Notes: generated by a model from the sequence alone, not told the origin. A stretch of DNA of 64,000 nt from a virus (IMGVR_UViG_3300037400_001903:13212-77211); one strand, 5' to 3'. Positions 1 through 43,999 are shown, counted from the stretch's first letter. A program made the numbers and translations.

Positions 1-3000
1 GAATTCTTTTATACTAGAAGCTATTTCATCACCAAATGATTTTTGTATTGATGATATTGTCTTAGCTATAACAGCATCTTTAGCAACACCTAAAGCTGTC
101 TTTAGTCTAGCTCTAGTGTCTTTACTTAAATTAAACTGATTATAAGTAAACAATTCTGTAGCATCTTTAGTTTCTACATAACGCCCATCTAATAAATCTT
201 TAAATTTTTTAGAAGCGAAACCTGTTGCTGAATCTTTGTATGATAATATTTCATCAATTAAGAACTTAGTATCAAGAGCAAGTCTTCTTATAATTTCATC
301 TGATTGTCTTTCACCTATAGCATATTCTGAATAATAAAGGTCACCATCTTTAAAGTCACTAGCTTTAAGTGTTGGATACTTTGAAGCATCTTCTTTTTTG
401 ATAACTTTAATGTAAGAAGTTTTATCATCTAATTTAGCATCATTCATATATAAAGCTTTTGCTTTTAATTCATTATCATTTAAAGAATCACCATTACGTA
501 ATTTTTCAAGTAGTTTTGCTATTGTTACACCAGTACTATTCTCTATTTCTTTTATAACATTAAACTCATTAACTGGGTCATAAGTAGAATCATATAACAT
601 GTTTATTAAATCATCAGCTGCATCCCAAGTTTTATCAGTAGATTTCATTAAAGAATTACCATATTTTTGTAGAGATGCGTCTGGTTTAATTAGCATTACT
701 TTATCTGAGTCAAAGTCTCCACTATGATAAGCCATGAATATATCTGGAGCTAAGATAATATCGTTATAAGTATTATCAACTATTCTAACTCTATAAGTGT
801 GAACTATATTCTGACCTACTCCTGGAACTCTATATAGTGAAATATAAACATAATCTGTTGGGCCTAAGCCTAAAGATTCTTTATAAGATTCTATAGAAGC
901 TCCACCGAATAATTGTTCAAATCTATGTCTAGTTATGCCAATATCAGTAGACTTTAGTTGATACTGTGTGCCGTCTTCTAAAGTTATATTTCTTCCAGGG
1001 ATTATACCTGAAGCCATTACCCAATTTGTAGGAATATCTACAGATTCAGAGAATGTAGACATAGCATCATCTAATGCATCAAAGTAGAAGTTCTTTAGAA
1101 TTCTTGGACCTTTATACTCTATGACAAATTCATTAGTACCAGGCTTATACGCATTTTCGAAGTCACCTGTCTTTAATCCTGTCATTAAATCGAATAATAG
1201 ATTCTTTGTATCATCATCTATATTTTTTAATTCAGCAGCTTTGAAAATCTTATCATAAACTTTTGATACAACAAAAGATTGATAATCTTTTTCAAGTCTT
1301 CTCTTTTCTGATTCAAAGCTTTCCTTAGAAACAGAATCATCTATAAAGTTAATGAAGCTTGTCTCATCATAAGTATTAACAGGTTTCCTGTCTTTGTATT
1401 TAGTATTAAGTAGATATTCTATTTCGTTGATAGGCATCTTTAAGAAATCTTCTTGAGTGAAGTTATCATTCTCTTTTAGTTGCTGCTTCTCTTTTCTGAT
1501 TGAATTAATCATGTCATTCATTAACTCAACGCCTGTTTTAAACTTATCTTCTGTTAATTCAGTACCATCATTATTTATGAATAATAATACTTTATCTCTA
1601 ACTGCATTTAAGTTTGATGAGCCATCATCATTAACATGTAATAACCAATTTAAGAAATCAGATTGATATTCAAATATTAATTCATGTTCAAGATTGTAAT
1701 CTTTCTTATAAAGATATTGAATTTCATCTGAATTTATTACAGCGTTTCTCTGAGTTACTAATTCATTAAGAAGCTTATCAGTCATAGATGTACCATATTT
1801 AGAATATAATTCTCTATAATCTTTAGCATCTTTATCTAAAGCATCTAATTTCCAAATATCATCAAATGATTTTAATGAACCGTCTTCTTGCTTAATAGAT
1901 GTTAATAACTTAAACAATTCAGTTTTATCTATATCATTAGCATCAAGACTTTTAAGTAAGCTATCTATATCTTTATATAGTGAGGCTTTAATTTTCTCAA
2001 CATCTACCAAGTTATTCATTTCATATAAGAAATACTTGTAGGAGAAAATAGCATCATCCATAGCTAAGTGTGATGTAGATTCATCACCTAACTGTCTTCT
2101 TAAATTTGCTAGAGATACAGAAGCTTTATTAATATCTGCATTAGGTGTTATAACTTTTGCAATATCTTCTTGTGTATCAATATGTTCAACAGCATCAGCT
2201 AATTTTCCGATTGAACCAAATTGCTTTTCTATTTTCTTGATATCTGTAGCTCTAGAGTTATGTCCAAGAAGTACAAACTCTTTAAGACCTAATTGAGATA
2301 AAGCATGGCTAATAGCTTCATCTATAGCTTTTAGTACTTCAGTATTTGCATCAGAACTATTTATAGAGAAGATGTATTCATTATTATGTTTTGTTTTAGT
2401 CCTTGTATTATATTTTAAACTGTCTTCATAATTCCTGTAAGCTGAAGCTGCATCCTTATCTGTAGAAGCTAGAGTTTCATAACCAGCTATTTCACTATCA
2501 TCATATTTAATTAAGATTCTATATCTAAGAATATCTTCATCTTTAGTTACAGATAAATCTTTAGAACCTTTAGCTACTGCGAAAGATATCTCATAAATTT
2601 TATCCTCTAGATTTTTACCGAAATAATTTTCAAGGTCGAAATTTACTATAGCTTTACCATCTATAAGCTCAGCAACATTTATTGTTTTTGCTACACTACC
2701 ATCATCATTATGAAGGTCAATCATACCTTCTTGAAGAGAAGTTCTAGCGTAATTCTCTTGAAGTTTATTTAAGTAATCTTCATTTCCTAATAAGAAGAAT
2801 TGTAAATCTTTACCTCTATTACCTGATAATATTTTATATTGGATAATATTAGCAACTGCTTGTTTTCTTTCTTCTGGGTCAGATATATTTGAAACAACTC
2901 TTTTCAAATCTAAAGCATGTAATTCACCATCTTCAGAATCTAAATTATCAATAGCTTTAGTAACATTTATATCATCACTTAAATTATCTAAGGATTCTTT

Positions 3001-6000
3001 AAGAACATCAGTAATGCTATTCTTGAAATCGAGAATGCTTGATGGAACAGAACTCTCATTTATAAAGTAAGTGAAAGCATCTATAGTATCAGCAACCATT
3101 TTGTTTGCTTTCTTTTGAAGAGCATCATATTCTTTGCTAGTTAATGTACCTTTCTTTAAATCTATATGAGATAAAGCTTGGTCTTTCAAACTTAAGAAAT
3201 CTGCAGCAGAATGTAAATTCTCTACTGTCTCTAATGTAGAATGAAGCAATCTATCTACAGCGTAGTTTAAAGATTCAACCATAGCTTCTTTAGTAGCATC
3301 AGGCATATTAGCAAATGTTTTAGATACCTCATCCATTATTAGTGTTTTAGAATTCTGCATATATAATGTTCTGATTTCTGAACGAGTCATATATGAACCA
3401 AGTTGTTTAGCAACTATATCTGCAGCACTATCTGATATAACATCAAAGTCTAATTCATTGTTTCTTTCAAAATAATCTGCAATACAATTTCTGTAAATCA
3501 TATTTCTTAAATAAGAAACATTACCAGACTTTTTATCTAGAGACATTATCTTTATATTCTCACCATAAGAAGAAGCATTTAAAGACATGACATTCTTAGA
3601 GGCATTAAATAAGAAAGCCTTCTTGTAATTTAATTTCTCATCTAATATACCTTTTAAGAATAATTGACGACCTAATGATATAGCTTCTCTACGACCATAG
3701 ATATTATCACCAACATTATCTATATGCCATACATCATTCTCATCTTGATAAGCGATAGTATATCTATTATATGAAGAAGACATATCTGTACCTGTAGTAT
3801 TGAAATAAATCTTCAAAGCTAATTCCATAGCTGTCTTTGAATCTATATCTACAAGCGAGTTATCTTTTAATATAGTTCCTGGTATAGATTTAGCTAAAGA
3901 AGCAATACTTGTAAGCATCTCGCCTAATGCTAGTTTATTTTCCATGTTAGCTACATACACAGAACCTGGATGGTCAACAGTTGGTGTAGTATAAATATTT
4001 AACATTTCTGATAATAATTTAGAGGTTTCACCATTTAATGTTGCAGCAGAAAGTTTCTTGAAGAAAGTATCTTGTTCTTTCTTATACTTAAGTCTTTCAC
4101 TTCTAAATAATATTTCATTAGCGAACTCTTCCATAGCATCATTCTTAATAAATGCTTGGCCTGCAGCATTGATTTGTGTAGTTTCTGTTCCTCTAGAATA
4201 AGTAACTCTTTGAGCAGAATAATCACGAACAAGGTCATTTATTGAGCCTTTAATATTAGTTAAATCATTCATTTGGAAAGGGTTAAACATAACTTTTTTA
4301 TCATGCATAACATATAAGCTACCACTAAATTCTTTACCATTTATATCCCAAACTATTTTAATAGAGTTTGCTGTCTCTACATATATGGTTTTTATTGTTG
4401 CAGTACCATTGTTTAAACTTACTAATAGCTTTAATAAACTTTCATCAGGTCTAGATATTGGTGTAATTAATATTTTATCAGGTAGTTTCGTACCAGTATA
4501 GTGCTCAAAAGAATCACCACAATAATCTACTATATCTTTATCAGCTATTTTTAAATCATCTAATGTTATATAAGAATATTCCTTTAAGCCTTTAGTAGAA
4601 ACATTAATAGCATTAATTGCATCTTTAGACACTACATAATTTTCTTTTGTTATATCTTTAAAGCTATTATTTTCATACTTATCAATTAAAGATAACTTCT
4701 CTTTTAATTGAGGTGTTACCATTCCAAGCTTTTCTAATGCATCAAATTGTTCTCTAGTAAGAACTCTTATATCATCAATACTAATGAAGGCTTTACCTGT
4801 AGATGAATCATATCTAATCATAGAAGCAATATCTGCATAAGGATTATCTTTTTGTAAAATGAATATGTCATCCCTAGAGTTATAAGTTGCAGGTGTAAGC
4901 ATCTTTAATAGACCAACTATTTTCTTAACTGTTTCTGCATTATAACCAGAATCTAAAGCAATCTTAGTATAGTCAAGTTTATCAACTATAGCCTTGCCAT
5001 CATAATCAATACCAAAGTTTCTGTATTCACCCATGTTTTTCTCAACAGCCTCAGCTATTTTATTTAATTGGTCTTTATCAAATACTATATCTATTTCTTC
5101 TTTAGTGAATCCTCTTGAGGCTAAAGCATCTATAGTCCTTTGGTTCTCTGATTTTAAATAAGACTTTATAATACTCTCAAGATTTTTTGTTATATCCTCT
5201 TCAGATGAATAACCTTTAATATTTAAAGAAGTATTACTAATGAAAGATTTGAAATCTTCTATAGTATCAAATCTATCAAAGTTCTGACCTTTAAGGAAAT
5301 CTAAGAAGTTTGCACCACCAGCACTTAGTCCTTCAACTTTAATAGTATCAAAATTATAAGTTTGTTCTGGTAGCTGAGCAATTTCTAATTCATTAGGTAA
5401 TACAAACATACTTCTTAAATTTATATTACCATTCTTATCAGAGAAATTTTTAATTATATAAGGTAATGTCCAATTATCTGCTTTAACATTTGTTATTACA
5501 ACCTTATGCATTTTACCAGGTAAATCTTCATTAATGAATTCATATAATGAAGAAGTCTTTTTTGTGAAGTTTTTATATTCCTCATCTGACATTGTGACTG
5601 AGTATAATGAAGTATCACTCTCAGTTTTAACATAAGCATTAGCTGCTTTTATTAAATATAATAATGTTATAGCATTACCAAATGCACCATCATCATTCAT
5701 GTCAGAGAATAATTGTTTATAAGAATAACTATTAAAATATTTTCTACTAGTTTCATTATCTATCTTAGATGCAGCTTTACCTAACTTTAACATACAAGTT
5801 ATAATTTCTTTAGCAGCATCTAAAGATATAGCATCTTTAGTTAAAGTAATACTAAACATTTTATTAATAGCATCTAAGTTTAAAGAATCAATATCAGCAT
5901 CAGATACTAATACACCATATCTATCCTTAACAGCAAGTTTAACATCTAGCTTCTCTTTATTATTTAAAAAGACTAGAGAGTTATCATCTGTAATAATTCT

Positions 6001-9000
6001 TGAAAGTTGCATTAGTTTATTATAATTTTCTAGAGTTAAATTAAATTCTAAACCTCTTGAAGAATCTGATGTGAAACTAATTCCAGGTTTATCTAAACTT
6101 CTACCTGATTCTAACATAGAATTTACTTCTACTTCAGAATAACCTATAGAATACATCATGTTCTTAAAATCATTTAACTCAGCTGTATTGTTTCTATCAA
6201 ATGTTAGAACACTTGTTTCATTATCTGTTTGCAATCTACATAAAGCTCTAAGAGTATCTATGTTTCTAGCATTGCCTAATTTCTTTTCTAGGTTAGCTAT
6301 TATAGTTTTACTACCAACAGATAATGCTTCTTTAGAACTTTCAACCTCTAATTCACGGACTAAATTATGAAATTCTTTTGTTTCTAATTGAGATAAGTTA
6401 ACAATTATTAAATCTTTTTTGTTATAACGAACAGTATCTTTTAAAAGCTTGCCGTATGTAATTAAAGAATTAATTAGTTCATCCTTAAGTAGATTAGCAT
6501 CTATATCTTCTGAACGTAAAGCTAAGAAGGTATCAACGAAATCAGTTATTTCCTTTTCGTTTGTTAAATAATCGTCTAAGTCTAGATTTCTTAGAGTTTG
6601 GCCCAAAGATGTTTGTAAAGGATTTTCTTTTACTAGCTCCAACTGACCTTCTGTAAAAGCTATCAAGCCCTCAAGTCCACTGAAGAAATCATTTCCAACT
6701 AATTTGTCTTTAATCAATAACTGTTGAACTTCTTTATCTTCTAATACTTTCTTGATAGCACTGTCGAGATTTTTAAGGTCAGTTGAAGAAACGTCATTGC
6801 TATCGCCAGATTTTTTAGCAGCTTGAAGTTTTCCAGAAAGTTCTTTGATTTCACCAGTAGTTTTATAATACTCTAAGTATTTCTTTGTATTAGATACAGC
6901 TTCGTCATTTCCTGTTGTGTCTATCTCATCATAAGAAATTCCTAGCTTATCAAATATATTTATAAGTTGTATTCTACTTATTGCATCTATTTTAGAAGAA
7001 GCAAGTGTACATAAATATGTAGCAATTAATTTTCTAGCTCCTTCTTTATATTCTGCAGAATCTAAGAAATGAGTGTTCTCACTGTTATTGAAAGCAGCAA
7101 CACCATTTTCTATATTAGCTTTGATTGTTTCAAAATCTTTTAAATAAGCCTTAGCAGTTTTACCTTGACAAATTTGAAGATTATTTCTTACGAATATATC
7201 TATTAATAAGTCACAACCAGATTTAATCTTGTCTGCTTCTTTAGTCATGTTTAAGCAGAATAAAGCTCTCAATGCTGTAGCTATTGAGTCTGCTTGTTTT
7301 AATTGACCAAAGATTGTATTTTCAAAACAGCCAACTTGTACATATATAGTTTGCACTTTACCTGTTTTATCTAGATACTGCACTTCATTGAATAATCCTG
7401 CAATAGCTAAAGCTCTCATAGCATTATCAAAATTAGGGTTTAACATATCTTGTAAGTAATCATTATGATAAGCCTCATTCATTTTGAAAACATTGGAATC
7501 ATTTAATAAAGTTCTTGCAGCTGCTTCATTAGGTTCAATACCTAAGATTTCTCCAGCAACTTTTTGGAAGTCTTTGTTTATAACTAAGTCTTCATATTCT
7601 GGAACCAATTTACCGTTAGAATCATTAGCTATATGGTCTATTATTACATACTTATCAAAAGAGTCTGAGAACTCTGAACTATTAACATTATTATAATCAT
7701 CAGGTCTAGCTTCTGAATAGAAGTTCATCTCTTTAAGAATAGACTCATCTAGTGATGCTTTCAATCCTGCCATACTTAGTACATCATTTAACTGTTGATG
7801 TAAAGAAATTTTACCACCCTTCTTATCATCAACTGTTTTAATATGAATATGTTTTTGATAAGAAGCATCATCAAAGTTTTCGCCCACAGATTTAAAAGTA
7901 TTGTTGATAGCATCATATTGTTCTTTAGTCAAAGTAAGAACTTTATCTGGGGTATCTAATTTAATACCGACAGAACTTAATACAGATTTAATTCTTTCGT
8001 TTGACATAACAAAGTCTTTATCTATTGTATAAGTAGTTATAGTTGTATTAGTTCCTTGGAATTCTTTAGCATTAGATTCAAACTCATTCTTAGCTCTTTC
8101 GTAAGCTTGTCTAATACTAAACTCACCTTTTAATACAGAGATATTAGTATTATAAAGAGTGTTGTACATCTTTTGATACATCATTAAATCATAAGAATTT
8201 CTTGCTATAATTTTTTCCACAGCTGATTCTTTGATATTAGCTAAAACTATAGCTCTGATACCACCAGCAGATTTTTCGTCTTTAGTTAATCTAGATAAAG
8301 TTTTTTCATCTATTCCTAATACATCAGTAGAAACATCTGTTGATACTTCACATAGGAATGTTAAAGCTTTTATTGTAGCAGAAATTTCTGATTCACCTTT
8401 ATCTCCAACACGAAGAGCCATAGCTGGTTCTATAATATTAGTTAATATTTTTTGAGCAGCTTCTGGATTCTTCTCAACCATAGAAGCATAACGCCCTCTT
8501 ATTGTATTAATAGCTGTATCATAAGTTTTACTTAAGTTATCTACAGATGTAATTGCTGCTCTAATATATTCGTCATCATCTAGGTGAGGGCCAATTAACT
8601 TACCTTCATCAGTTCTTCCGAAGAACTTGAATCCCATATCTTGCTTAGCAATATATAAGTTTGTAAGAATAAATTGTGGGTTTAAAGTTATATTCTTCAT
8701 GTTCTCCCAGAAGTTACCATCTTTACTAGATAATGTAGCAGTAGTAGTTTGAGTTACAATATTTTCTATTATATCTGCAACTGTATCAATAGATTTAGTG
8801 TAAACTGATTTACCTATACTTCTTAAAGATTCAACACCAATTTGGTTTACAAAATTATTTAAAGTTTCATTAGATACTTTGCTACTTAAATCACTAATCT
8901 TATCTTGAATAGCTTTTTCATAAGCACCTCTTTGTCTAAAGAAAGATGTAACACCACTATCTCCAACAGCTCTTAGTGCAAATGATGTAAGAGTATTAAT

Positions 9001-10728
9001 ACCTATATTAGCTAAACCTCTACCAATAATCTCGCCTTCTGATAATTTTTCATCCTCACTAAGCATTTGATTTTGTATTGAAAGTTTAGTCATTGTTGAG
9101 ACACCATCACGTAATGCAAGTGTAGCAGCTGTTACAAATCTATTAGCCATAGCATGTTCAGCAAGCTTAGGTACAATAGAAGTAACGCTACCTCCTCTTA
9201 ATCCTGAGTAGGTACGAGTAGCAAATGCTGCACCTTTTAATACTGCTGTTCCAGCTTGAGCAAATCCTTTAGAAACACCACTTGCCATATTTGCAGTAGC
9301 ATTTGCAGCTGTTTTAGCTGCATTATTTATAGCTCCAGTTAATCCTGCAGAAGCAATCATACCAACGATTGTACCTGTAGCATTAAGTATTCCTCTAGCC
9401 CAGTCGTCACCTTCGCCCCATTGGAATCCTTGGAAGTCTTTTGTATTAACACCACCAAAAAGAATGTTGTTATTTTTAAAAGCATTCCAATCTAACATTA
9501 TATCATCATTACCACACCAGTGTCCTACTAATCCTACAACTTGTGCACCGAAATCAAATAGGCTTGTGAATACAGAGAAGAATGAACCAAGGAAAGAATC
9601 AACAGCTTCTTGGAAAGCACCGTTACCTAGCCAACCATGAGTTGTTACTCTATCAACAACTTTGTTTCCATCCTTATCTGTTTCATAATAAATCTTACAT
9701 GTATTGTTACCAGTACCTGATGAACCTTCAGCTGCATAAAGCTTACCATCAGTACTATAGTAATAATCGTAAGTACCATCATTATCTATATCAATGAATG
9801 GGTTAAACATATTTATGTCAACGAATCCACCTCTATATAATTTAATAAATTGTTCTTCTGATTCAAAGTAACTTGAGATTGCTGCGAACTGGTCAGCAAA
9901 TAGAGTCTTAATATCTTCAGCAGTTACTTCTCCACCTGAAGCCCATACTACTGCATTCTCTTTTAGTCTATTTAAAGAAGCAGCTTCGTACCAAGATTCA
10001 GCTTGAAATTTTTCTTCAGCCATAGAAAGAACATCAGACAAGAATGTTGATGAGTTTAAAGGATTTGAATAATCACCTTTCTTAGCTTTGTTATACCAAT
10101 ATAAAGAAGAATCAAAGTCATAGCCTTGAGCTTTAAGAATATCTTTACCATAAGCTTTGTATAAGAAATCAGCATATCCAATGTTACCTGCTTTATATTC
10201 AGCATGTAACTTTTTTACTTTCTCTTCAGCTAGTAAAAGCTTTGCTGTTGTTTCAAAACCTTTTGGAACGAAACCTGTTTTATTATAGTACTCTGTAAAA
10301 GATTCTCTATCAGATAAACCACAAGCTCTCTTTAAATCAGTATACTTTGTAGTACCTAATGAGTCCCTATATAAAGCTTCAACTGAATCATCCAATGGTT
10401 CTCCAGTAGGAACGTAAGATTCTACAGAACCTTCAGGTGCATAGGTTGTACCTTTATCTCCACCTAATATAGTTGAAATATCTGAAGAAGAATATTCATC
10501 TAGGTTAGGTCGTATGACTCCTGTACTTGCATTTAAAAAACCATCTTGCTGTGCCTTTTGCTCGTTGTCATCCAACTTAATGTCGAACTTATTTGAGCCA
10601 GTACTAGGAGATGGCGTTAAAAGAGTATCGTCAATTTCTTTATTAGAACCTGCGATATCGTCATTAACATTTTGAGTTAATTCATTAAAAATATTATTGT
10701 TCTTATAATCTGTGTTTTGTCCTTGCAT
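1..10728 (-). CDS. Giant (>=3576 aa, 3'-partial) putative virion-ejected polyvalent protein with DEDDh exonuclease and two-barrel RNA polymerase (beta-prime-like) catalytic domain
   Basis: ATG at 10728 after AGAGAGGGG RBS and a SigA promoter. I read the frame codon by codon and found no stop to position 1. N-terminal Gly/Ala-rich hydrophobic segments (about 8950-9550); exonuclease motifs FDLE/GHN..D/HLAMDD (2053-2640); LYRVP...YHSGDFDSDKV (700-835). Confidence 0.9.
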   Translation of the reverse strand, partial: MQGQNTDYKNNNIFNELTQNVNDDIAGSNKEIDDTLLTPSPSTGSNKFDIKLDDNEQKAQQDGFLNASTGVIRPNLDEYSSSDISTILGGDKGTTYAPEGSVESYVPTGEPLDDSVEALYRDSLGTTKYTDLKRACGLSDRESFTEYYNKTGFVPKGFETTAKLLLAEEKVKKLHAEYKAGNIGYADFLYKAYGKDILKAQGYDFDSSLYWYNKAKKGDYSNPLNSSTFLSDVLSMAEEKFQAESWYEAASLNRLKENAVVWASGGEVTAEDIKTLFADQFAAISSYFESEEQFIKLYRGGFVDINMFNPFIDIDNDGTYDYYYSTDGKLYAAEGSSGTGNNTCKIYYETDKDGNKVVDRVTTHGWLGNGAFQEAVDSFLGSFFSVFTSLFDFGAQVVGLVGHWCGNDDIMLDWNAFKNNNILFGGVNTKDFQGFQWGEGDDWARGILNATGTIVGMIASAGLTGAINNAAKTAANATANMASGVSKGFAQAGTAVLKGAAFATRTYSGLRGGSVTSIVPKLAEHAMANRFVTAATLALRDGVSTMTKLSIQNQMLSEDEKLSEGEIIGRGLANIGINTLTSFALRAVGDSGVTSFFRQRGAYEKAIQDKISDLSSKVSNETLNNFVNQIGVESLRSIGKSVYTKSIDTVADIIENIVTQTTTATLSSKDGNFWENMKNITLNPQFILTNLYIAKQDMGFKFFGRTDEGKLIGPHLDDDEYIRAAITSVDNLSKTYDTAINTIRGRYASMVEKNPEAAQKILTNIIEPAMALRVGDKGESEISATIKALTFLCEVSTDVSTDVLGIDEKTLSRLTKDEKSAGGIRAIVLANIKESAVEKIIARNSYDLMMYQKMYNTLYNTNISVLKGEFSIRQAYERAKNEFESNAKEFQGTNTTITTYTIDKDFVMSNERIKSVLSSVGIKLDTPDKVLTLTKEQYDAINNTFKSVGENFDDASYQKHIHIKTVDDKKGGKISLHQQLNDVLSMAGLKASLDESILKEMNFYSEARPDDYNNVNSSEFSDSFDKYVIIDHIANDSNGKLVPEYEDLVINKDFQKVAGEILGIEPNEAAARTLLNDSNVFKMNEAYHNDYLQDMLNPNFDNAMRALAIAGLFNEVQYLDKTGKVQTIYVQVGCFENTIFGQLKQADSIATALRALFCLNMTKEADKIKSGCDLLIDIFVRNNLQICQGKTAKAYLKDFETIKANIENGVAAFNNSENTHFLDSAEYKEGARKLIATYLCTLASSKIDAISRIQLINIFDKLGISYDEIDTTGNDEAVSNTKKYLEYYKTTGEIKELSGKLQAAKKSGDSNDVSSTDLKNLDSAIKKVLEDKEVQQLLIKDKLVGNDFFSGLEGLIAFTEGQLELVKENPLQTSLGQTLRNLDLDDYLTNEKEITDFVDTFLALRSEDIDANLLKDELINSLITYGKLLKDTVRYNKKDLIIVNLSQLETKEFHNLVRELEVESSKEALSVGSKTIIANLEKKLGNARNIDTLRALCRLQTDNETSVLTFDRNNTAELNDFKNMMYSIGYSEVEVNSMLESGRSLDKPGISFTSDSSRGLEFNLTLENYNKLMQLSRIITDDNSLVFLNNKEKLDVKLAVKDRYGVLVSDADIDSLNLDAINKMFSITLTKDAISLDAAKEIITCMLKLGKAASKIDNETSRKYFNSYSYKQLFSDMNDDGAFGNAITLLYLIKAANAYVKTESDTSLYSVTMSDEEYKNFTKKTSSLYEFINEDLPGKMHKVVITNVKADNWTLPYIIKNFSDKNGNINLRSMFVLPNELEIAQLPEQTYNFDTIKVEGLSAGGANFLDFLKGQNFDRFDTIEDFKSFISNTSLNIKGYSSEEDITKNLESIIKSYLKSENQRTIDALASRGFTKEEIDIVFDKDQLNKIAEAVEKNMGEYRNFGIDYDGKAIVDKLDYTKIALDSGYNAETVKKIVGLLKMLTPATYNSRDDIFILQKDNPYADIASMIRYDSSTGKAFISIDDIRVLTREQFDALEKLGMVTPQLKEKLSLIDKYENNSFKDITKENYVVSKDAINAINVSTKGLKEYSYITLDDLKIADKDIVDYCGDSFEHYTGTKLPDKILITPISRPDESLLKLLVSLNNGTATIKTIYVETANSIKIVWDINGKEFSGSLYVMHDKKVMFNPFQMNDLTNIKGSINDLVRDYSAQRVTYSRGTETTQINAAGQAFIKNDAMEEFANEILFRSERLKYKKEQDTFFKKLSAATLNGETSKLLSEMLNIYTTPTVDHPGSVYVANMENKLALGEMLTSIASLAKSIPGTILKDNSLVDIDSKTAMELALKIYFNTTGTDMSSSYNRYTIAYQDENDVWHIDNVGDNIYGRREAISLGRQLFLKGILDEKLNYKKAFLFNASKNVMSLNASSYGENIKIMSLDKKSGNVSYLRNMIYRNCIADYFERNNELDFDVISDSAADIVAKQLGSYMTRSEIRTLYMQNSKTLIMDEVSKTFANMPDATKEAMVESLNYAVDRLLHSTLETVENLHSAADFLSLKDQALSHIDLKKGTLTSKEYDALQKKANKMVADTIDAFTYFINESSVPSSILDFKNSITDVLKESLDNLSDDINVTKAIDNLDSEDGELHALDLKRVVSNISDPEERKQAVANIIQYKILSGNRGKDLQFFLLGNEDYLNKLQENYARTSLQEGMIDLHNDDGSVAKTINVAELIDGKAIVNFDLENYFGKNLEDKIYEISFAVAKGSKDLSVTKDEDILRYRILIKYDDSEIAGYETLASTDKDAASAYRNYEDSLKYNTRTKTKHNNEYIFSINSSDANTEVLKAIDEAISHALSQLGLKEFVLLGHNSRATDIKKIEKQFGSIGKLADAVEHIDTQEDIAKVITPNADINKASVSLANLRRQLGDESTSHLAMDDAIFSYKYFLYEMNNLVDVEKIKASLYKDIDSLLKSLDANDIDKTELFKLLTSIKQEDGSLKSFDDIWKLDALDKDAKDYRELYSKYGTSMTDKLLNELVTQRNAVINSDEIQYLYKKDYNLEHELIFEYQSDFLNWLLHVNDDGSSNLNAVRDKVLLFINNDGTELTEDKFKTGVELMNDMINSIRKEKQQLKENDNFTQEDFLKMPINEIEYLLNTKYKDRKPVNTYDETSFINFIDDSVSKESFESEKRRLEKDYQSFVVSKVYDKIFKAAELKNIDDDTKNLLFDLMTGLKTGDFENAYKPGTNEFVIEYKGPRILKNFYFDALDDAMSTFSESVDIPTNWVMASGIIPGRNITLEDGTQYQLKSTDIGITRHRFEQLFGGASIESYKESLGLGPTDYVYISLYRVPGVGQNIVHTYRVRIVDNTYNDIILAPDIFMAYHSGDFDSDKVMLIKPDASLQKYGNSLMKSTDKTWDAADDLINMLYDSTYDPVNEFNVIKEIENSTGVTIAKLLEKLRNGDSLNDNELKAKALYMNDAKLDDKTSYIKVIKKEDASKYPTLKASDFKDGDLYYSEYAIGERQSDEIIRRLALDTKFLIDEILSYKDSATGFASKKFKDLLDGRYVETKDATELFTYNQFNLSKDTRARLKTALGVAKDAVIAKTISSIQKSFGDEIASSIKEF

Positions 10729-20043: not shown

Positions 20044-21591
20044 ATGGAAAGATTTGCTAATATTAATGCTATGTTGGGAGTAGGTATGCTCCCTTTATTT
20101 GAACTAAAGTCTGGTAATAGATTATTAGTTCTTTGTGATAACTCTAAGGTTATCATTGAAGTTCCTATCGTAGAATCTGGTAAGAGTTTCTACGGTTATG
20201 TCAATACTAGTAATGAACAATTAGAGACAGCTATCTCTAATTTCATCACTGATAATTTTAAGTCTACATATCCTGATATGACTCGTAAGGTTACTATCAA
20301 GACTAAGCCTTATGCTTTTACTGCTGATGATTTTATTGTTACAGGTATTGCTAAACAATCTGTTGGTGGTTTACAAAAGTATACTTATTATGAGAAGCTT
20401 TTGGCACCAGAAGGATTTGATTTCTCTGCATTTAAGAAGTCAGTAGTTGTTTCTACTGCAAGAGATTATTCTGCTTGTCAATTAGATGAGGAAGCTCAGA
20501 TGGTTCTTAAAGATAACGCAGCAGTCTTCAGTTATTTTACACCTAATATAAATGACTGGGCTGACAATGTTAAGCTTGCTTATTATGCTGTTCAACAAGG
20601 CAAGGTTAATCTTGTTATCTTTAAGGGACCAGCTGGAACTGGTAAATCAATTCTTGCTAGAGAGTTTGCTTATCTAATGAAAGCTCCTCTATTATCTATG
20701 CAGTGTACTGATGGAACAACTGCTGATGATTTGATGGGTAAAGCTGTAGTTAATACTGACCCATCTGTTCCTGGTCAATTTACTTATGCACTTGGACCAG
20801 TTCTTAAGTGTAGAAATAAAGGTTGGCAACAACTTCTTGATGAAGGTAATATGTCACAAGCTAACTGTATCAATATCCTTAACCAGTTTGGTGATGATAC
20901 TAATATTATTGAATGGGATGGTAAGTCTTATACTTGTTCTCCTAACTTTGTATTGTATTTCACAATGAACTCTGGTTATGAAGGAACTAATTCATTAAAC
21001 GCTGCTTTAAAATCTAGAACTATTGTTGTAGATGTTCCTAGATTAACTAAGACAGAGTTTGCTGATAGACTTTTTACTTATGTAACTAATAAATTATCAG
21101 CTACATTAAGTAAGGATTTCTGTAAAGAGGTATTTTCTTTTACAGAATATATGCAAGAGACTGCTAAAAAGTTTGCAGAGAATGTAGAGTTCTGTATCAG
21201 AAATGGGCAAAAGTTATGTGCTTTAGTTTTAACTAAGGCTTGTAGTGAAAGTGAATTCACTGCTGCAGTTTATGAATCTTATGTAGATTTCTTATCTATG
21301 GATAATGATAACACTGACACTTTAAATATTTTAAAGCAGTCTGTTGAAATGAAAGACAAGATTAAGAAACTATATAATCTTTATGATTATAAGGTTGTTG
21401 AATCTGTTGATGAGTCTAAGTTATTCAGCTTTGATGATGTTCTATTTATTGATGATGAAGATTCATCTTCAAATACAACTACATCAGGTTTTACTTCTAA
21501 TGAATCATCTTCATTTGATGAGGACTTAGATGATTTAGATAATTTCTTGAATAGTGATGCCAAAGAAATAAATGAAAATGAGGAGGCTTAA
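20044..21591 (+). CDS. MoxR/CbbQ-type AAA+ ATPase
   Basis: Walker A GPAGTGKS, Walker B LLDE, FTMNSGYEG..LNAALKSR; acidic tail. Confidence 0.85.
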   Translation: MERFANINAMLGVGMLPLFELKSGNRLLVLCDNSKVIIEVPIVESGKSFYGYVNTSNEQLETAISNFITDNFKSTYPDMTRKVTIKTKPYAFTADDFIVTGIAKQSVGGLQKYTYYEKLLAPEGFDFSAFKKSVVVSTARDYSACQLDEEAQMVLKDNAAVFSYFTPNINDWADNVKLAYYAVQQGKVNLVIFKGPAGTGKSILAREFAYLMKAPLLSMQCTDGTTADDLMGKAVVNTDPSVPGQFTYALGPVLKCRNKGWQQLLDEGNMSQANCINILNQFGDDTNIIEWDGKSYTCSPNFVLYFTMNSGYEGTNSLNAALKSRTIVVDVPRLTKTEFADRLFTYVTNKLSATLSKDFCKEVFSFTEYMQETAKKFAENVEFCIRNGQKLCALVLTKACSESEFTAAVYESYVDFLSMDNDNTDTLNILKQSVEMKDKIKKLYNLYDYKVVESVDESKLFSFDDVLFIDDEDSSSNTTTSGFTSNESSSFDEDLDDLDNFLNSDAKEINENEEA

Positions 21592-22465: not shown

Positions 22466-24403
22466 ATGGCAACAGTATATGATTCTTTAAATTTTATTAG
22501 ATACATTTATTCATCTAAGTTATTACCTAGATTTAAAATGTTATCTAAAGGTATGTTAGTTAAAGGTGGCGTTTATTGTTCATCTAATGTTTTATTTAAT
22601 TTTACTAGACAGGCTGATTCTGCTTATTGTAGATTAGCATCTTCATCTACTAGTTCTATTCCTGTATTTAAGATTGTTTTAGGTGGTACTTTAATTCGAA
22701 ATGTTTGTGGTTTACCTTATAATACTTCTAATCGTTTGGTTTTAAAGAGTGCTGTTGATGATATTAAGATGTCAACTGTCGCTCTTTTCTTTCACGAAAT
22801 GGGTCATCTTTTGTATACAGATATGACTGATACTAGAATCCTTAACTATAAGGATAAAGATTATATTAATTTTATCCATAGTATTCATAATATTTTTGAG
22901 GATGTTTATCTTGAGAAGTTTGGTCTTCGTAGAGATTATCCTGTTACTCAAAAGTATTTTAAGTTTTTAACAGCTAGAGTTTTTATTTCTCAAGCTAAAT
23001 CTTATAGTGATGATGGTTCTTCTCAAAGTTTTATTAATTATATTTTATTGAAACTTCGTTGCCCTAAAACTTTAACAGCTAAGAATGCTGTGTTTGATTC
23101 TGTATCAAAAGATATTTTGCCTATGTTTTCTGATATCCTTCATGATGATGATGGTACTAGCAGAATAACTAAGCAGATAGCTTTAGCTGAATGGCTTATA
23201 GCTAATACTTCATTAGACTTTAAGACAGTTACTCCACCAGAAGAGGAACTTCCTACAGGTGTTGGTCCTGGTTCAGGTCCTGCTAAGCCTGGTAAACCTG
23301 AGACAGGAGCTGGTGGTGGCGTTGGTTCTAATGCTCAAAACGGTGCTGGTGACCCAACTAATCGTGGTGGAAATAGAGGTTCTGGTGACATTGAAGATAA
23401 TCCTACACCTGAAGAGCGTCCTGTTTTTAAATCATTAGATGAGATGGAGCAATCTCTAGAAGACGAAGACATTGTTCCAACTTATAATGAAGAGAATGAT
23501 ATTCGTGTTGATGATTTACAGGAGATTGATGATGCTTTCAATAGTGTTTTATCTATTGATGCTATTGGAAATCATGAGTGGGTTATTGCAAACAAGATGT
23601 TTGGCTTTGGACCTAATGTTAAAGAAGCTGTAGATAAAGCTATGCTTGATATGAATCCTATTGCTTTACAAGTTATTAAATCTCTTAAGTTATTTAAAGG
23701 TCAAATTAGACCTAGAAATACTGCTGGATTTAATTCTGGCAAGCTTCATATTCCTACAGCTATTAAGTCTGTATCATCTGGTTTGCCTACACCTTATCTT
23801 TTTCAAAGAAAGATAGCTCGTGGTCAAGCTGCTGATTTGGCTATTAGTATTCTATGTGATAATTCAGGCTCTATGTCTGGTAATAAATCACATGTATGTA
23901 CTAGAGCTATGTTAGCATTAGCACAAGCTTGTGATAATGTAGGTATACCTATTGAAGTTAATTGTTTTACTAATGGTTCTACTAACTATACTATTCAGAT
24001 GAAGTCTTTTGAAGATAAGTTTGCTGATTCCAAATATTATTTTGGTATTACTGATAGTGATATATGTTATCATTATACTTTTGATAGTGATATTCCTGTA
24101 TTCTGTAGTAATGAGGATGAAGTTAATTTATATAATGTTTGGAAAAGATTCCTTAAGAATAAACATAAAGATAAACTTATCTTTGTTATTTCTGATGGAC
24201 AAACTTGTGGTTCTTCATCTGATTTAAGAGGTCTTATTCAAGAGATAAAGCAATCTGGTGTAAAGATAATTGGTTTAGGTATTCAATCTAAAGCTGTTGC
24301 TTCATTGTATCCTGAATATAAATTATTTGATACTGAAAGTTCTTTACAAGGCTTACCAGATTATCTTCTTGAAACTCTTAACAGCTTAATAAGAAAAGAT
24401 TAA
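22466..24403 (+). CDS. VWA-domain protein (CobT-like MoxR partner) with N-terminal HExxH motif
   Basis: FFHEMGH...NIFED; Gly/Pro linker; MIDAS DNSGSM and ISDG. Confidence 0.85.
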   Translation: MATVYDSLNFIRYIYSSKLLPRFKMLSKGMLVKGGVYCSSNVLFNFTRQADSAYCRLASSSTSSIPVFKIVLGGTLIRNVCGLPYNTSNRLVLKSAVDDIKMSTVALFFHEMGHLLYTDMTDTRILNYKDKDYINFIHSIHNIFEDVYLEKFGLRRDYPVTQKYFKFLTARVFISQAKSYSDDGSSQSFINYILLKLRCPKTLTAKNAVFDSVSKDILPMFSDILHDDDGTSRITKQIALAEWLIANTSLDFKTVTPPEEELPTGVGPGSGPAKPGKPETGAGGGVGSNAQNGAGDPTNRGGNRGSGDIEDNPTPEERPVFKSLDEMEQSLEDEDIVPTYNEENDIRVDDLQEIDDAFNSVLSIDAIGNHEWVIANKMFGFGPNVKEAVDKAMLDMNPIALQVIKSLKLFKGQIRPRNTAGFNSGKLHIPTAIKSVSSGLPTPYLFQRKIARGQAADLAISILCDNSGSMSGNKSHVCTRAMLALAQACDNVGIPIEVNCFTNGSTNYTIQMKSFEDKFADSKYYFGITDSDICYHYTFDSDIPVFCSNEDEVNLYNVWKRFLKNKHKDKLIFVISDGQTCGSSSDLRGLIQEIKQSGVKIIGLGIQSKAVASLYPEYKLFDTESSLQGLPDYLLETLNSLIRKD

Positions 24404-27860: not shown

Positions 27861-29375
27861 TTATGCAGTTTGACTTATTAAGATATAAGCTTTTAAGTAG
27901 CTGCAAGCTATTGATTTAGCATTTCTAATTGCTGTATCAATGCTTGTGAAGCTATCAATTATTCCTTTCTCATATAAATTAACTATGCAATTATTTTGTA
28001 CGTCTAGCCCACATTCTAAATCTTCTAGTGTCATACGCTTTGGCTTCTTCAAGCCTGCATTACTGATGATTTTCAAACAAGGTTCTTGTAATGCTTTTAT
28101 AATGTGTTTGTATTTGCCTGATAAGGAAAGTAAATATAACGCTTTACCACCACCAGGAAGAATACCATCACGACAAGCACAACGAACTGCACCTATCGCA
28201 TCATCTAATTTTAAACGAATCGTAGTGAATTCAGTAATAGTCTGTGCAGCAATCTTAATCTTAGTTACACCTGCTGTTAGGTTTGCTAAACGTCTGTTGA
28301 TAACATCAGTTCTGATTATTCCTGTGTTGAATTCCTTGTCTTCAAGTTCCTTCTTGTAAGACTTAACTCTCTTCTCAACTTCTTTTGAATCAGAGCTGCA
28401 AAGTATTGTAGTCTTGTCTTGCTCAACAATAATCTTGTTAGCTGTTCCTGCATAAGCTAAACTGTAATCAGTTGTGCCTAGTGTAGGTGATTGAATCTTA
28501 CCGTTTGAACGAGCAGCAATGTCTAAGAATACTTCCTCTGGTTTAGAGTCGTTGATAAATACAATCATGAATCTTAATTTGTTTTGAATAAGATTATCTA
28601 GTAATATCTTTAAGCTTTCAGGACTGAAATCTTTTGATAAGAAGAATACTAATGGTTGATTTGGATTTTCAATCGAGTCAAATAATACTTTGATTCCGTT
28701 TCGTGTTAAGATTCCTTCAGCTAATAGGATTAGTCTAGCATTTTCTGCTTCCCATTTTCCCTCATCATTGCATAGTTGTTTCATTTCATCTGAGAAATAT
28801 CCTGAATCAATAACCATACCATCAACATGTTCGATAGAAGATTCAGCTGACTTACGGTCATGCTCAATAATAACATTCATGTTTGAACCTGCATACTTGT
28901 AAGCTTCAGCTACTAGTTCACCGATGGCAGGTATCTTAGTTGTTATATTAGCAACATTTCTTACCATGTCAGGTGAATCAATAGGCTTCTTCATAGTTTG
29001 TAAATCCTTTAGAGCTGCTTCAACCTCTTCATTTATCATGTCAGATGCTTCTTGTGGATGCTTTCCCTTCTTTATTAGGTCTAGCCCAGCTTTGTATAGC
29101 TCATTAGTTAATAAAACTGTTAGAGTTGTACCATCAAAAGCTCTCTTCTCTGTGTTGTTAGCAGCCTCAATAATAGATAATGCAACCATTCTTTCAAACT
29201 GGTCATCAAATTTCATGCATTCTTTCGCAACAGTAACACCATCGTCAGTTAGGAAAGGTCTAGAGAATTCATCCTGTAGAACTGCTAGCCTTCCCTTAGC
29301 TCCCATTGTAGGAGTAACGATGTCACTCATCTTTTGAAATGTTTCTTTTATTATCTTGATGTCTTTTGTCTTCAT
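27861..29375 (-). CDS. groEL: Phage-encoded GroEL-like chaperonin
   Basis: TMGAKG, TDDGVTVAKE, FDGTT, DDA..A...GILPGGG; start moved to MKTKDI after AAGGA; no GGM tail. Confidence 0.92.
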   Translation of the reverse strand: MKTKDIKIIKETFQKMSDIVTPTMGAKGRLAVLQDEFSRPFLTDDGVTVAKECMKFDDQFERMVALSIIEAANNTEKRAFDGTTLTVLLTNELYKAGLDLIKKGKHPQEASDMINEEVEAALKDLQTMKKPIDSPDMVRNVANITTKIPAIGELVAEAYKYAGSNMNVIIEHDRKSAESSIEHVDGMVIDSGYFSDEMKQLCNDEGKWEAENARLILLAEGILTRNGIKVLFDSIENPNQPLVFFLSKDFSPESLKILLDNLIQNKLRFMIVFINDSKPEEVFLDIAARSNGKIQSPTLGTTDYSLAYAGTANKIIVEQDKTTILCSSDSKEVEKRVKSYKKELEDKEFNTGIIRTDVINRRLANLTAGVTKIKIAAQTITEFTTIRLKLDDAIGAVRCACRDGILPGGGKALYLLSLSGKYKHIIKALQEPCLKIISNAGLKKPKRMTLEDLECGLDVQNNCIVNLYEKGIIDSFTSIDTAIRNAKSIACSYLKAYILISQTA

Positions 29376-29481
29376 AAATTCCTTTGTCTTCCTCTTCGTC
29401 ACTATTTATAGCAGCTACTATAGCAATGGCTATGATGATTCCTATGAATATCACACCCATTATTATGTATACTTTAGTCAA
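29323..29481 (-). CDS. Small single-pass membrane protein between groES and groEL (not in the ORF track)
   Basis: TTG start overlapping the groES stop (alternative ATG at 29460): YIIMGVIFIGIIIAIAIVAAIN then an acidic/charged tail; 3' end overlaps the groEL start. Confidence 0.55.
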   Translation of the reverse strand: MTKVYIIMGVIFIGIIIAIAIVAAINSDEEEDKGIYEDKRHQDNKRNISKDE

Positions 29482-37111: not shown

Positions 37112-37936
37112 TTATTTGTCCTCCTTTGCTTCTTGTTTACCTGATGCTATTGCATCTAGAATGTTTACTTTAAATTTTGAATAAGACATGTTAGATACCT
37201 TAAGAGGAATCTTCATTTCCTTTGGTTTACGTGTCTTAGATAAGTATGCTTGACATCCATCAATGTAAGTATAATACTTAGGTGTACGTTGAATCTTGTT
37301 ATCAGCATCAGTTGTTGTAACTTCTTCAATCTTTGTATACCATACGAAAGATGCTTTAGCACATAGACCATAAGCTGCTTTGTTCATTAAGCTTGGGATA
37401 ATCTTATTGTTACCTGGGTTCTCTTCATCAGATACTTCCTTTTGGTGACAAATTACTACCATCTTAGAGCCTGTTGTTAAATGGATATAACGACATGCGT
37501 TCCAAATTTCGTCATGCTCTTGAGATGCTAAGCCCCAAAGTTGTAAAGTCATTTGGTCTTTCTTTGCTGTTTCCATTAAATCTTTCTTTAATAGATATTC
37601 AAGCTGAGTTGCTGAGTCAATTACGATAGTTGAGTATGCAACTGGGATTTTCTTTCCAGTCTCATCAATAGTGTAACCATTGATTACATCCTTGAATACT
37701 TCATTGATTTCAGCGAAGCTTGTGATAGGCACTACTACAATATTCTCACGTTCAGCATAAGAAATTGAACCTGTACCTCCTTCTAATACGTCTAAGTATA
37801 GCATAGGCTTGTCCTTTGTCTTAGGGAAAGTAGATGCTAATACTGTTTTGCCTGAACCTTGAAGTCCATAGATAACATAAACTTCATCAGTAGGCATTTG
37901 ATTTACTGCTTTTGCTTTTGTTGTTAATACGCTCAT
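37112..37936 (-). CDS. AAA_24 / Sak4-like ATPase
   Basis: IYGLQGSGKT, LDVLEGG, IVIDS, ICH.KE. Confidence 0.8.
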   Translation of the reverse strand: MSVLTTKAKAVNQMPTDEVYVIYGLQGSGKTVLASTFPKTKDKPMLYLDVLEGGTGSISYAERENIVVVPITSFAEINEVFKDVINGYTIDETGKKIPVAYSTIVIDSATQLEYLLKKDLMETAKKDQMTLQLWGLASQEHDEIWNACRYIHLTTGSKMVVICHQKEVSDEENPGNNKIIPSLMNKAAYGLCAKASFVWYTKIEEVTTTDADNKIQRTPKYYTYIDGCQAYLSKTRKPKEMKIPLKVSNMSYSKFKVNILDAIASGKQEAKEDK

Positions 37937-37985
37937 AATTTTTTATCTCCTTTGTTATATATTTTTGGGATGAACGCATATCCCT

Positions 37986-38026
37986 TGTTCACTTTATATT
38001 ATACACTATAGTTTACATTTATGCAA
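37986..38026 (-). promoter_or_regulatory. Replication-module promoter A
   Basis: TTGCAT-N17-TATAAT; shares a 30 bp motif with the promoter at 43573. Confidence 0.75.
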
Positions 38027-38029
38027 TAG

Positions 38030-43646: not shown

Positions 43647-43999
43647 TTAATCTTTAAATGTCATATAATATTTGAATGCTTTTCCTTTAGGAGCATCTTT
43701 ATCTTCTAAGAATTTCTTAGCAAGTCTAACATAAGATGATGTATCATTAGTTACTGCTCCATAGTAATCTGAATAAATCATATTCATTACATAGTTCCAA
43801 TCATACTCATTGAAGTATTCAAACATTATGCCATTTGCTTTTGCAACAGATGTTGTTTGCTCTACTATGCCTAGGATAAATATTGACGAGTTGCTTTAAT
43901 GTTTTATCTAGTTCAGTTTCAAAGTCTTCTTTTAATTCTGCTGCACGGATATTTTCATCATGTGTTTTAATTATCTCTGATTTAGTTAGTTTGTTTCTC
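43647..43999 (-). pseudogene. Split locus: 61 aa ORF plus an out-of-frame C-terminal fragment of a conserved small phage protein
   Basis: ATG 43999 ORF ends at 43819; another frame encodes EQTTSVAKANGIMFEYFNEYDWNYVMNMIYSDY...FLEDKDAPKGKAFKYY to the stop at 43647. Confidence 0.45.

What the first reader, a model, noticed from the sequence alone, without database searches (positions are those of the whole stretch)
2000..2660. Intact DEDDh (DnaQ-like) exonuclease fused into the same giant protein
Seen: ExoI AIVNFDLENYFGKNLEDKIYEISF (D2698, E2700), ExoII VLLGHNSRATD (H2823, D2829), HIDTQEDIAK and ExoIII SHLAMDDA (H2887, D2892), about 330 aa upstream of the RNAP barrel. Established: these are the DEDDh catalytic motifs of epsilon/RNase T-type 3'-5' exonucleases. 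Inference: an ejected exonuclease-RNAP fusion, an architecture I do not recognise from characterised virion RNAPs. It could proofread or trim transcripts, process genome ends, or destroy defence oligonucleotides on entry.
Basis: partly seen in the sequence, partly recalled or inferred. Interest (0 to 1): 0.82.

Follow-up and report, generated by a model that had tools for sequence, protein, structure and literature searches.

The report
Exonuclease domain inside giant phage polymerase protein
A 5,870-residue protein of an uncultured rumen phage carries a very diverged but apparently intact 3'-5' exonuclease domain about 330 residues ahead of an RNA-polymerase catalytic barrel, a combination I found in no paper and whose job is still open.

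Summary
On the minus strand, window 1999-2661 encodes aa 2690-2910 of a 5,870-aa ORF.

Evidence for a DEDDh (DnaQ/RNase T-type) domain:
- Pfam RNase_T is the top hit for this domain and, independently, for its 42%-identical ortholog. Both give E 2e-4, just under the curated cut-off.
- A profile-profile comparison with ten known DEDDh enzymes gives 78% probability (P 2e-5), with every catalytic residue in register.
- This stretch is the only outlier among 48 windows of the protein.
- Protein-language-model neighbours are DnaQ-like clusters.

The five catalytic residues are invariant in all three known homologs. Strain variants show purifying selection (27 of 40 changes synonymous, p 5e-7). AlphaFold models were poor (pLDDT 45 and 52), so the fold is suggested but not shown.

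All three homologs also carry the DFD(S/G)D polymerase barrel in the same ORF. The gene lies just upstream of terminase and portal. Packaging, ejection and function are inferred; I favour action in cis on 3' ends at the start of infection.

My literature searches found no description of this fusion. This scan has noted similar exonuclease-polymerase fusions in at least eight other phage genomes, in unrelated proteins.

The parts
1..10728 (-). Window part (aa 1-3576) of a 5,870-aa ORF. The gene continues past the window start to base 6327 of the source record.
   Evidence: Intact ORFs of 5,917 and 5,771 aa exist in two other assemblies.
1999..2661 (-). DEDDh (DnaQ/RNase T-like) exonuclease domain, aa 2690-2910
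   Evidence: Pfam RNase_T E 2e-4. hhalign probability 78%, P 1.9e-5. Sole outlier of 48 windows. Language-model neighbours are DnaQ-like.
2626..2649 (-). ExoI motif IVNFDLEN (D2698, E2700)
   Evidence: Aligns with D12/E14 of E. coli epsilon. Invariant in 3 homologs.
2581..2601 (-). Strand 2 motif KIYEISF
   Evidence: Aligns with KIIEIGA of epsilon. K, I, Y, E, I and F are invariant.
2329..2523 (-). Family-specific insertion of about 65 aa between strand 3 and helix A. Its start (YRILIKYDD..GY.TLAS.TD) is the best-conserved part of the domain.
   Evidence: Alignments. It has no counterpart in the DEDDh profile. The models predict two helices plus a hairpin here.
2230..2274 (-). ExoII motif VLLGHNSRATDIKKI (H2823, N2824, D2829)
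   Evidence: In register with HNAxFD of the profile, with one extra residue. H, N and D are invariant.
2155..2187 (-). Strand 5 motif EHIDTQEDIAK (I2850, D2851, T2852)
   Evidence: Aligned with the idTl motif of the profile. Invariant.
2026..2073 (-). ExoIII motif SHLAMDDAIFSYKYFL (H2887, D2892)
   Evidence: Aligned with H162/D167 of epsilon. H, A, D, D and A are invariant.
682..843 (-). RNA polymerase beta-prime-like aspartate barrel (RVP...AYHSGDFDSDK...P), aa 3296-3349
   Evidence: In-register hhalign match to E. coli RpoC 446-520, P 0.006, the best of 48 windows. The DFD(S/G)D motif is present in all three homologs.

Best explanation
Shown or strongly supported: aa 2690-2910 of the giant protein are a highly diverged DEDDh-type (DnaQ / RNase T superfamily) domain. 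It has a complete two-metal catalytic set (D2698, E2700, D2829, D2892, general base H2887) and is kept under purifying selection. In every known homolog it is covalently joined to a two-barrel-type RNA polymerase aspartate barrel about 330 aa downstream.

Inferred: the protein is packaged in the virion and ejected into the host like the giant polymerase proteins of crAss-like, N4-like and P23-45 phages. The domain would then be an active Mg-dependent 3'-5' exonuclease. Only a few copies would enter the cell, so it would act in cis on 3' ends handled by its own polymerase rather than on bulk host nucleic acid.

The variant I favour (about one chance in three) is that it trims the 3'-ended strand of the entering phage DNA. 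That would expose or clean single-stranded template for a polymerase that, like phi14:2 gp66, works on single-stranded DNA.
For: Identity:
- Pfam RNase_T is the best hit in two 42%-identical orthologs.
- hhalign against 10 known DEDDh enzymes gives 78% probability, P 1.9e-5, with ExoII, DT and ExoIII in register; ExoI and strand 2 are in register separately.
- The domain is the only outlier among 48 windows of the protein.
- With my own DEDDh HMM, the eight best of about 170 windows are all this region in the three proteins.
- Language-model neighbours are RNase_T, DEDDh_C and Rv2179c clusters.
- The best structural matches of the weak models are polymerase exonuclease domains, QIP, exonuclease I and RNase T.

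Intactness:
- All five catalytic residues and the flanking motif residues are invariant.
- 27 of 40 strain variants are synonymous against 29% expected (p 5e-7), and none touches a catalytic residue.

Fusion and context:
- The DFD(S/G)D barrel lies in the same ORF in all three homologs.
- It aligns in register with RpoC.
- Terminase and portal lie directly downstream, and this order is conserved on the second contig.
- Hydrophobic segments sit near both ends of the protein.

Single-strand preference of gp66, and fusion of its virion neighbours into one polyprotein in some phages: preprint 10.1101/2020.03.07.982082.
Against: - Both Pfam scores are below the curated cut-off (22.4 and 22.2 against 24 bits). 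The hit vanishes when 600-aa slices or the whole protein are scanned.
- An exhaustive phmmer search of 1.8 billion representatives finds no ordinary exonuclease at E <= 0.001.
- HMMER against PDB sequences finds nothing.
- AlphaFold models have pLDDT 45 and 52, and no structural match is significant on its own.
- The family has only three members, so conservation of the motif residues is a weak test.
- Virion packaging, ejection and activity are untested.
- A 3'-5' resection leaves the 5'-ended strand single-stranded, which a polymerase would read towards the DNA end. That fits only outward-pointing early genes, and the genome ends are unknown because the record is about 71% complete.
Confidence: 0.55

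Rival explanations
1. Transcript editing. The domain removes RNA 3' ends, either misincorporated or extruded from a backtracked complex. It would serve this single-chain polymerase as Gre/TFIIS-stimulated cleavage serves cellular polymerases, or as nsp14 ExoN serves the coronavirus polymerase.
For: From established knowledge: DEDD exonucleases joined to or bound by polymerases usually edit the growing 3' end (PolC, Pol III epsilon, family A/B polymerases, nsp14). The domain lies close to the catalytic barrel in the chain. The nearest weak matches include RNA-acting members: RNase T, oligoribonuclease/REXO2 and QIP.
Against: Two-barrel polymerases cleave RNA in their own active site (established knowledge). 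Fidelity should matter little for a handful of early transcripts. Nothing in the sequence tells RNA from DNA specificity. The position of the domain relative to the polymerase channels is unknown, because the second barrel could not be located.
Confidence: 0.2
2. Action on host or defence nucleic acids. The ejected exonuclease would destroy linear signalling oligonucleotides, primers, tRNA 3' ends or defence-system ssDNA before any phage gene is expressed.
For: It would be delivered before phage gene expression, if it is ejected. Language-model neighbours include viral clusters named oligoribonuclease. Small-molecule substrates could be cleared by a few enzyme copies.
Against: DEDDh enzymes need a free 3'-OH, so cyclic signals are not substrates (established knowledge). 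Very few copies would enter the cell, and they would be tethered within a 5,870-aa protein. In this lineage (only three members known) the domain has not been seen without the polymerase barrel.
Confidence: 0.12
3. Not a working exonuclease. The domain would be a structural remnant of a DnaQ-like fold, or the motif match would be fortuitous in an Asp/Asn-rich protein.
For: The Pfam score is sub-threshold, there is no significant hit to any single known exonuclease, and no confident fold was obtained. The canonical TTG of ExoI and FD of ExoII are changed, and the usual substrate-binding segment after strand 3 is replaced by an insertion.
Against: The strict motif pattern occurs in 0 of 2,000 shuffles. 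Two orthologs independently hit the same Pfam family. All catalytic residues are invariant at 42-45% overall identity. The region is under purifying selection.
Confidence: 0.1

Closest known systems
DEDDh exonucleases: E. coli Pol III epsilon (DnaQ), RNase T, oligoribonuclease; Pfam RNase_T PF00929
   Same: The order and register of ExoI (DxE), strand 2 (K-I-x-E-I), ExoII (HN..D), strand 5 (DT), the S-L..L helix and ExoIII (H-x-A-x-x-D-A) all match. The H-x4-D form defines the 'h' subclass.
   Different: About 15-20% identity and below the Pfam cut-off. ExoI reads DLEN[YF] instead of DxETTG, and ExoII has one to three extra residues before the Asp. A conserved insertion of about 65 aa replaces the usual segment after strand 3. 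The domain is embedded in the middle of a 5,870-aa protein.
crAss-like phage virion RNA polymerase (phi14:2 gp66, PDB 6VR4) and the fused 'huge polyprotein' versions in some crAss-like phages
   Same: A giant, fast-evolving protein with a DFDxD barrel, encoded beside the structural genes. The phage's replication gene set (DnaG primase, SNF2 helicase, PolA, PD-(D/E)XK nuclease, AAA ATPase) resembles that of crAss-like phages (PMC7886860; preprint 10.1101/2020.03.07.982082).
   Different: No sequence match to gp66 or to any PHROG family. The terminase is nearest to non-crAss podoviruses, at under 30% identity. No nuclease or exonuclease is mentioned in the papers read.
Thermus phage P23-45 gp96, tape-measure-fused virion two-barrel RNA polymerase (PMC10770324)
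   Same: A two-barrel polymerase forms one module of a ~5,000-aa virion protein thought to span the envelope and to couple DNA entry with early transcription.
   Different: In gp96 the polymerase is at the N-terminus of a tail tape measure. Here it is in the middle of a protein encoded upstream of terminase and portal. No exonuclease is reported for gp96.
Polymerase-linked DEDD exonucleases (PolC, family A/B DNA polymerases, coronavirus nsp14 ExoN), from established knowledge
   Same: A 3'-5' exonuclease is physically coupled to a nucleic-acid polymerase. The best structural matches of the weak model are exonuclease domains of family B polymerases (Z 6.3).
   Different: Those partners are DNA polymerases or an RNA-dependent RNA polymerase. 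No DNA-dependent two-barrel RNA polymerase with a fused exonuclease turned up in my literature searches.
Exonuclease-polymerase fusions noted earlier by this scan in tail modules of jumbo phages (unpublished AI notes)
   Same: An intact DEDDh domain and a two-barrel polymerase core sit in one giant virion-module protein.
   Different: Those proteins are 2,259-3,115 aa and sit at the tape-measure position. None was detectable as a relative of this domain in the exhaustive phmmer search, assuming the library holds them. I did not check them.

Membership tests
DEDDh exonuclease superfamily (DnaQ-like; Pfam RNase_T PF00929) | ExoI motif with Asp and Glu (D-x-E) on strand 1 | tested here: met
   D2698-L-E2700 aligns with D12/E14 of E. 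coli epsilon and is invariant in 3 homologs.
DEDDh exonuclease superfamily (DnaQ-like; Pfam RNase_T PF00929) | ExoII Asp after strand 4 (HN..D) | tested here: met
   H2823-N-S-R-A-T-D2829 aligns with HNAAFD103 of epsilon with one extra residue. H, N and D are invariant.
DEDDh exonuclease superfamily (DnaQ-like; Pfam RNase_T PF00929) | ExoIII H-x4-D (general base His plus fourth acidic residue) | tested here: met
   H2887-L-A-M-D-D2892-A aligns with H162...D167-A of epsilon and is invariant.
DEDDh exonuclease superfamily (DnaQ-like; Pfam RNase_T PF00929) | Significant match to the family profile | tested here: inconclusive
   It is the best Pfam family, at E 2e-4, in two orthologs, but 22.4 and 22.2 bits fall under the 24-bit cut-off and the hit is lost in longer slices. 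hhalign gives 59-78% probability, P 2e-5 to 9e-5.
DEDDh exonuclease superfamily (DnaQ-like; Pfam RNase_T PF00929) | DnaQ-like alpha/beta fold (five-stranded sheet, RNase H-like) | tested here: inconclusive
   The models have pLDDT 45 and 52. The order of secondary-structure elements fits the fold. The best matches are DEDD exonuclease domains, but at Foldseek E 0.01-0.03 and VIA Z 6.3.
DEDDh exonuclease superfamily (DnaQ-like; Pfam RNase_T PF00929) | Metal-dependent 3'-5' exonuclease activity | not testable with these tools
   Needs a biochemical assay.
Virion-packaged two-barrel RNA polymerase (crAss-like gp66 type) | Beta-prime-like barrel with DxDxD metal loop | tested here: met
   DFDSD at aa 3338-3342, preceded by R-V-P...H. 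In register with RpoC 446-520 (35% identity over 65 columns, P 0.006, the best of 48 windows). Present in all homologs.
Virion-packaged two-barrel RNA polymerase (crAss-like gp66 type) | Second (beta-like, lysine) barrel in the same chain | tested here: inconclusive
   No window of the protein stands out against E. coli RpoB. An earlier follow-up of this scan did not settle the barrel order either.
Virion-packaged two-barrel RNA polymerase (crAss-like gp66 type) | Detectable homology to gp66 or to crAss-like polymerase families | tested here: inconclusive
   No hit in PDB sequences, PHROGs or GenBank phages. These polymerases are known to be extremely divergent (PMC7886860).
Virion-packaged two-barrel RNA polymerase (crAss-like gp66 type) | Presence in the virion and delivery into the host | not testable with these tools
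   Only context is available: the gene is adjacent to terminase and portal, and the protein has terminal hydrophobic segments.

The most novel reading that the evidence does not exclude
A 3'-5' exonuclease is a functionally required partner of injected two-barrel RNA polymerases. It would have been acquired independently in this rumen-phage lineage and in the tail-module fusions of jumbo phages noted elsewhere in this scan. It would either give a DNA-dependent RNA polymerase its first known dedicated exonucleolytic editing or backtrack-rescue module, or resect the entering genome end to create the single-stranded template these polymerases prefer.
Probability: 0.25. Interest if true: 0.85.

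Novelty: new variant of a known kind. Interest (0 to 1): 0.6.

Why it matters
Virion-carried RNA polymerases let phages start transcription without host enzymes. How they engage the incoming DNA is poorly understood: gp66 works only on single-stranded DNA in vitro. An exonuclease built into the same polypeptide offers a concrete, testable handle on that step, whether template preparation, transcript editing or early counter-defence. It would also add a new partner to the short list of polymerase-coupled exonucleases. The domain is small and has clear catalytic residues to mutate, so the question can be answered at the bench even though the phage is uncultured.

Tried and rejected
Searches that found no further relatives:
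- Word-index protein searches for proteins of 157-503 aa and 504-2,000 aa found nothing. At 1,966-6,258 aa only P0002 came up.
- The exhaustive phmmer search returned only P0003.
- GenBank phages by tblastn with the exonuclease or the barrel region: no match.
- IMG/VR scans: none.
- GTDB genome contigs: none.
- JGI metagenome contigs: only the P0003 contig.

Family and structure-database searches:
- NCBIfam and PHROGs gave nothing relevant for the domain.
- Pfam and PHROGs on 600-aa slices of the whole protein found no domain anywhere, not even RNase_T. So the Pfam hit depends on cutting the domain out.
- A six-frame search of the phage record with PF00929 gave no match.
- HMMER against PDB sequences, with the single sequence and with a 2-sequence profile, gave only chance hits.

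Structure prediction:
- Two AlphaFold runs with 3-sequence alignments gave pLDDT 45 and 52.
- I did not add distant DEDDh sequences to the alignment, because that would have made the fold test circular.

Other attempts:
- Locating the second polymerase barrel with RpoB failed.
- Looking for a published exonuclease-polymerase fusion among GenBank phages through RpoC similarity led only to ordinary phage polymerase genes, for example Salmonella phage Arash gp206. I dropped this line.
- No RNA holder was listed among the sequencing runs.
- Pieces of run X3 laid on the stretch were short and under 90% alike, and most continued into unrelated sequence. I treated them as spurious; X3 supports only one listed substitution, which X2 and X4 also show.

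Full report
**What is there**

The window is bases 13212-77211 of a 77,211-base IMG/VR virus record, classed as linear and about 71% complete. A minus-strand ORF starts at window base 10728 and runs off the window start. In the full record it is 5,870 aa.

The finding's coordinates (2000-2660) correspond to aa 2690-2910.
- IVNFDLEN: D2698, E2700
- VLLGHNSRATD: H2823, D2829
- EHIDTQEDIAK
- SHLAMDDA: H2887, D2892
- DFDSD at aa 3338-3342

The bare five-residue spacing pattern is not rare in this Asp-rich protein: it appears in 61 of 2,000 shuffles. The fuller pattern, with the DT and H.A..DA motifs, appears in none, and it occurs once in the real protein.

**Is it a DEDDh exonuclease domain?**

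The domain cut out as aa 2657-2943 has Pfam RNase_T (PF00929) as its best family, at E 2e-4 and 22.4 bits, just under the 24-bit cut-off.

Only two homologs exist in the protein collections searched. P0002 is 5,917 aa and 92% identical in this domain. P0003 is 5,771 aa and 42% identical. I recovered the DNA of P0003 on JGI contig Ga0247611_10000524. Its domain independently gives RNase_T as best family, at E 2e-4 and 22.2 bits.

I built a reference alignment of ten annotated DEDDh enzymes: E. coli dnaQ and rnt plus eight phage exonucleases. Against it:
- hhalign of the three-sequence domain alignment gives 78% probability, P 1.9e-5. HN..D, DT, S-L..L and H-x-A-x-x-D-A are all in register with epsilon D103, H162 and D167 (59% with the built-in tool).
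- The ExoI and strand-2 segment aligns in register separately (D2698/E2700 with D12/E14; KIYEI with KIIEI; P 0.025).
- Among 48 overlapping windows across the whole giant protein, this is the only outlier, with score 41 against at most 23 elsewhere.
- With an HMM of the reference set, the eight best of about 170 windows from the three giant proteins are all this region.

Language-model neighbours of both orthologs are clusters carrying RNase_T, DEDDh_C or Rv2179c-like domains.

**Limits of the identification**

- The Pfam hit disappears when 600-aa slices or the whole protein are scanned, and in a six-frame search of the record.
- No individual exonuclease reaches E 0.001 in the exhaustive search.
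- HMMER against PDB sequences finds nothing.
- With only three sequences, AlphaFold gave pLDDT 45 and 52.

The predicted order of elements fits the DnaQ fold: strand with ExoI, strand 2, strand 3, helix, strand ending at HN, helix starting at D2829, and a long ExoIII helix.

The best structural matches of the weak models are a PolC exonuclease domain, RNase T, QIP and REXO2 by Foldseek (E 0.01-0.03). The VIA aligner ranks exonuclease domains of family B polymerases first (Z 6.3), followed by QIP and exonuclease I. None of these is significant alone. I therefore rate the fold as suggested, not shown, and the family assignment at about 85%.

**Is it intact and maintained?**

D2698, E2700, D2829, H2887 and D2892, together with N2824, D2851, T2852, A2889 and A2893, are invariant in the three proteins. 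Overall identity in the domain is 45% to P0003.

Contigs from goat and bovine gut runs carry strain variants of this stretch. Of 40 listed substitutions, 27 are synonymous against 29% expected (p 5e-7). None touches a catalytic codon.

**How it departs from the canonical family**

- ExoI reads DLEN[YF] rather than DxETTG.
- ExoII has one to three extra residues before the Asp.
- A roughly 65-aa insertion follows strand 3. Its start is the most conserved part of the domain, and it replaces the usual substrate-contacting segment.

**The fusion and its setting**

All three proteins have DFD(S/G)D about 640 aa after ExoI. The surrounding segment aligns in register with E. coli RpoC 446-520, including the M-x-S-T motif after the metal loop. 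It is the best of 48 windows, at P 0.006. This agrees with an earlier follow-up of this scan. I could not locate the second barrel, so "upstream of the polymerase" is true only relative to the aspartate barrel.

The rest of the giant protein matches no Pfam or PHROG family. Terminase and an SU10-type portal follow directly downstream. The same order holds on the second contig, where the terminase is 79% identical while the giant protein is only 49% identical. Strongly hydrophobic segments lie at aa 383-401 and 5423-5444.

The replication genes recall crAss-like phages: DnaG primase, SNF2 helicase, D5-like helicase, PolA with its own DEDDy exonuclease, a PD-(D/E)XK nuclease and an AAA_24 ATPase (PMC7886860). 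The terminase, however, is nearest to unrelated podoviruses, at under 30% identity. The habitat is the ruminant gut.

**How it probably works**

Shown: a DEDDh-type catalytic set, conserved and selected, sits in one chain with a polymerase barrel.

Inferred: the protein is packaged and ejected. This rests on analogy with gp66 of phi14:2, whose virion neighbours are fused into one polyprotein in some phages (preprint 10.1101/2020.03.07.982082), and with P23-45 gp96 (PMC10770324).

A few tethered copies per infection argue for action in cis rather than on bulk host nucleic acid. Because gp66 transcribes single-stranded but not double-stranded DNA in vitro, I favour trimming of the entering DNA's 3'-ended strand to expose or clean template, at about one chance in three. 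One caveat is geometric: resection of that polarity suits only early genes that point outward. The rivals are transcript 3'-end editing or backtrack rescue (about 0.2), attack on linear oligonucleotides or other host or defence nucleic acids (about 0.12), and an inactive or fortuitous domain (about 0.1).

**Novelty**

I found no paper that describes an exonuclease on a virion RNA polymerase.

This scan's own notes list at least eight other genomes where a DEDDh domain is fused to a two-barrel polymerase in tail-module proteins of jumbo phages. Those notes are unchecked here. Their proteins are far shorter, at 2,259-3,115 aa, and were not picked up as relatives of this domain.

If the notes hold, the present case would be a second, independent lineage with the same pairing. 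That would raise the odds that the two activities are functionally coupled. I class it as a new variant of a known kind: giant virion polymerase proteins, here with an added exonuclease module.

Noticed in passing
window 4219-4671 (-), aa 2020-2170 of the giant protein: Variable cassette. This stretch is absent from P0003 and replaced by unrelated sequence in P0002, while the flanks are well conserved. It has no Pfam hit.
   Followed up: partly
window 9526-9582 (-) (aa 383-401); aa 5423-5444 lies outside the window (L003:1608-1673): These are the only two strongly hydrophobic segments in 5,870 aa, one near each end. That would be compatible with a membrane-inserting ejected protein.
   Followed up: no
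L002:4747-6327 (-) and L014:19573-20805 (+): The terminase next to the giant gene is 79% identical between the two phages, while the giant protein is only 49% identical. The giant protein therefore evolves much faster than its neighbour.
   Followed up: partly
window 43982-44956 and 44965-45921 (-): Two adjacent genes with sub-threshold Radical_SAM matches (26.8 and 24.0 bits, cut-off 29.5), upstream of the SNF2 helicase. Their role is unknown.
   Followed up: no
window 27861-29402 (-): A phage-encoded Cpn60/GroEL-type chaperonin (Pfam E 8e-35).
   Followed up: no
window 20044-21591 (+) and 22466-24403 (+): A MoxR-like AAA_5 ATPase followed, after a 169-aa ORF, by a CobT-like VWA protein, in the rightward block.
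   Followed up: no
window 37112-40943 (-): PolA with its own DEDDy exonuclease domain, a PD-(D/E)XK nuclease and an AAA_24 ATPase lie in a row. The phage therefore has a separate proofreading exonuclease for replication.
   Followed up: partly
window 1900-2760 (-): Method note. The RNase_T match (22 bits) is reported only when the domain is cut out. It is not reported for 600-aa slices, the whole protein or the six-frame genome search. Weak domains in giant proteins are therefore easily missed.
   Followed up: yes
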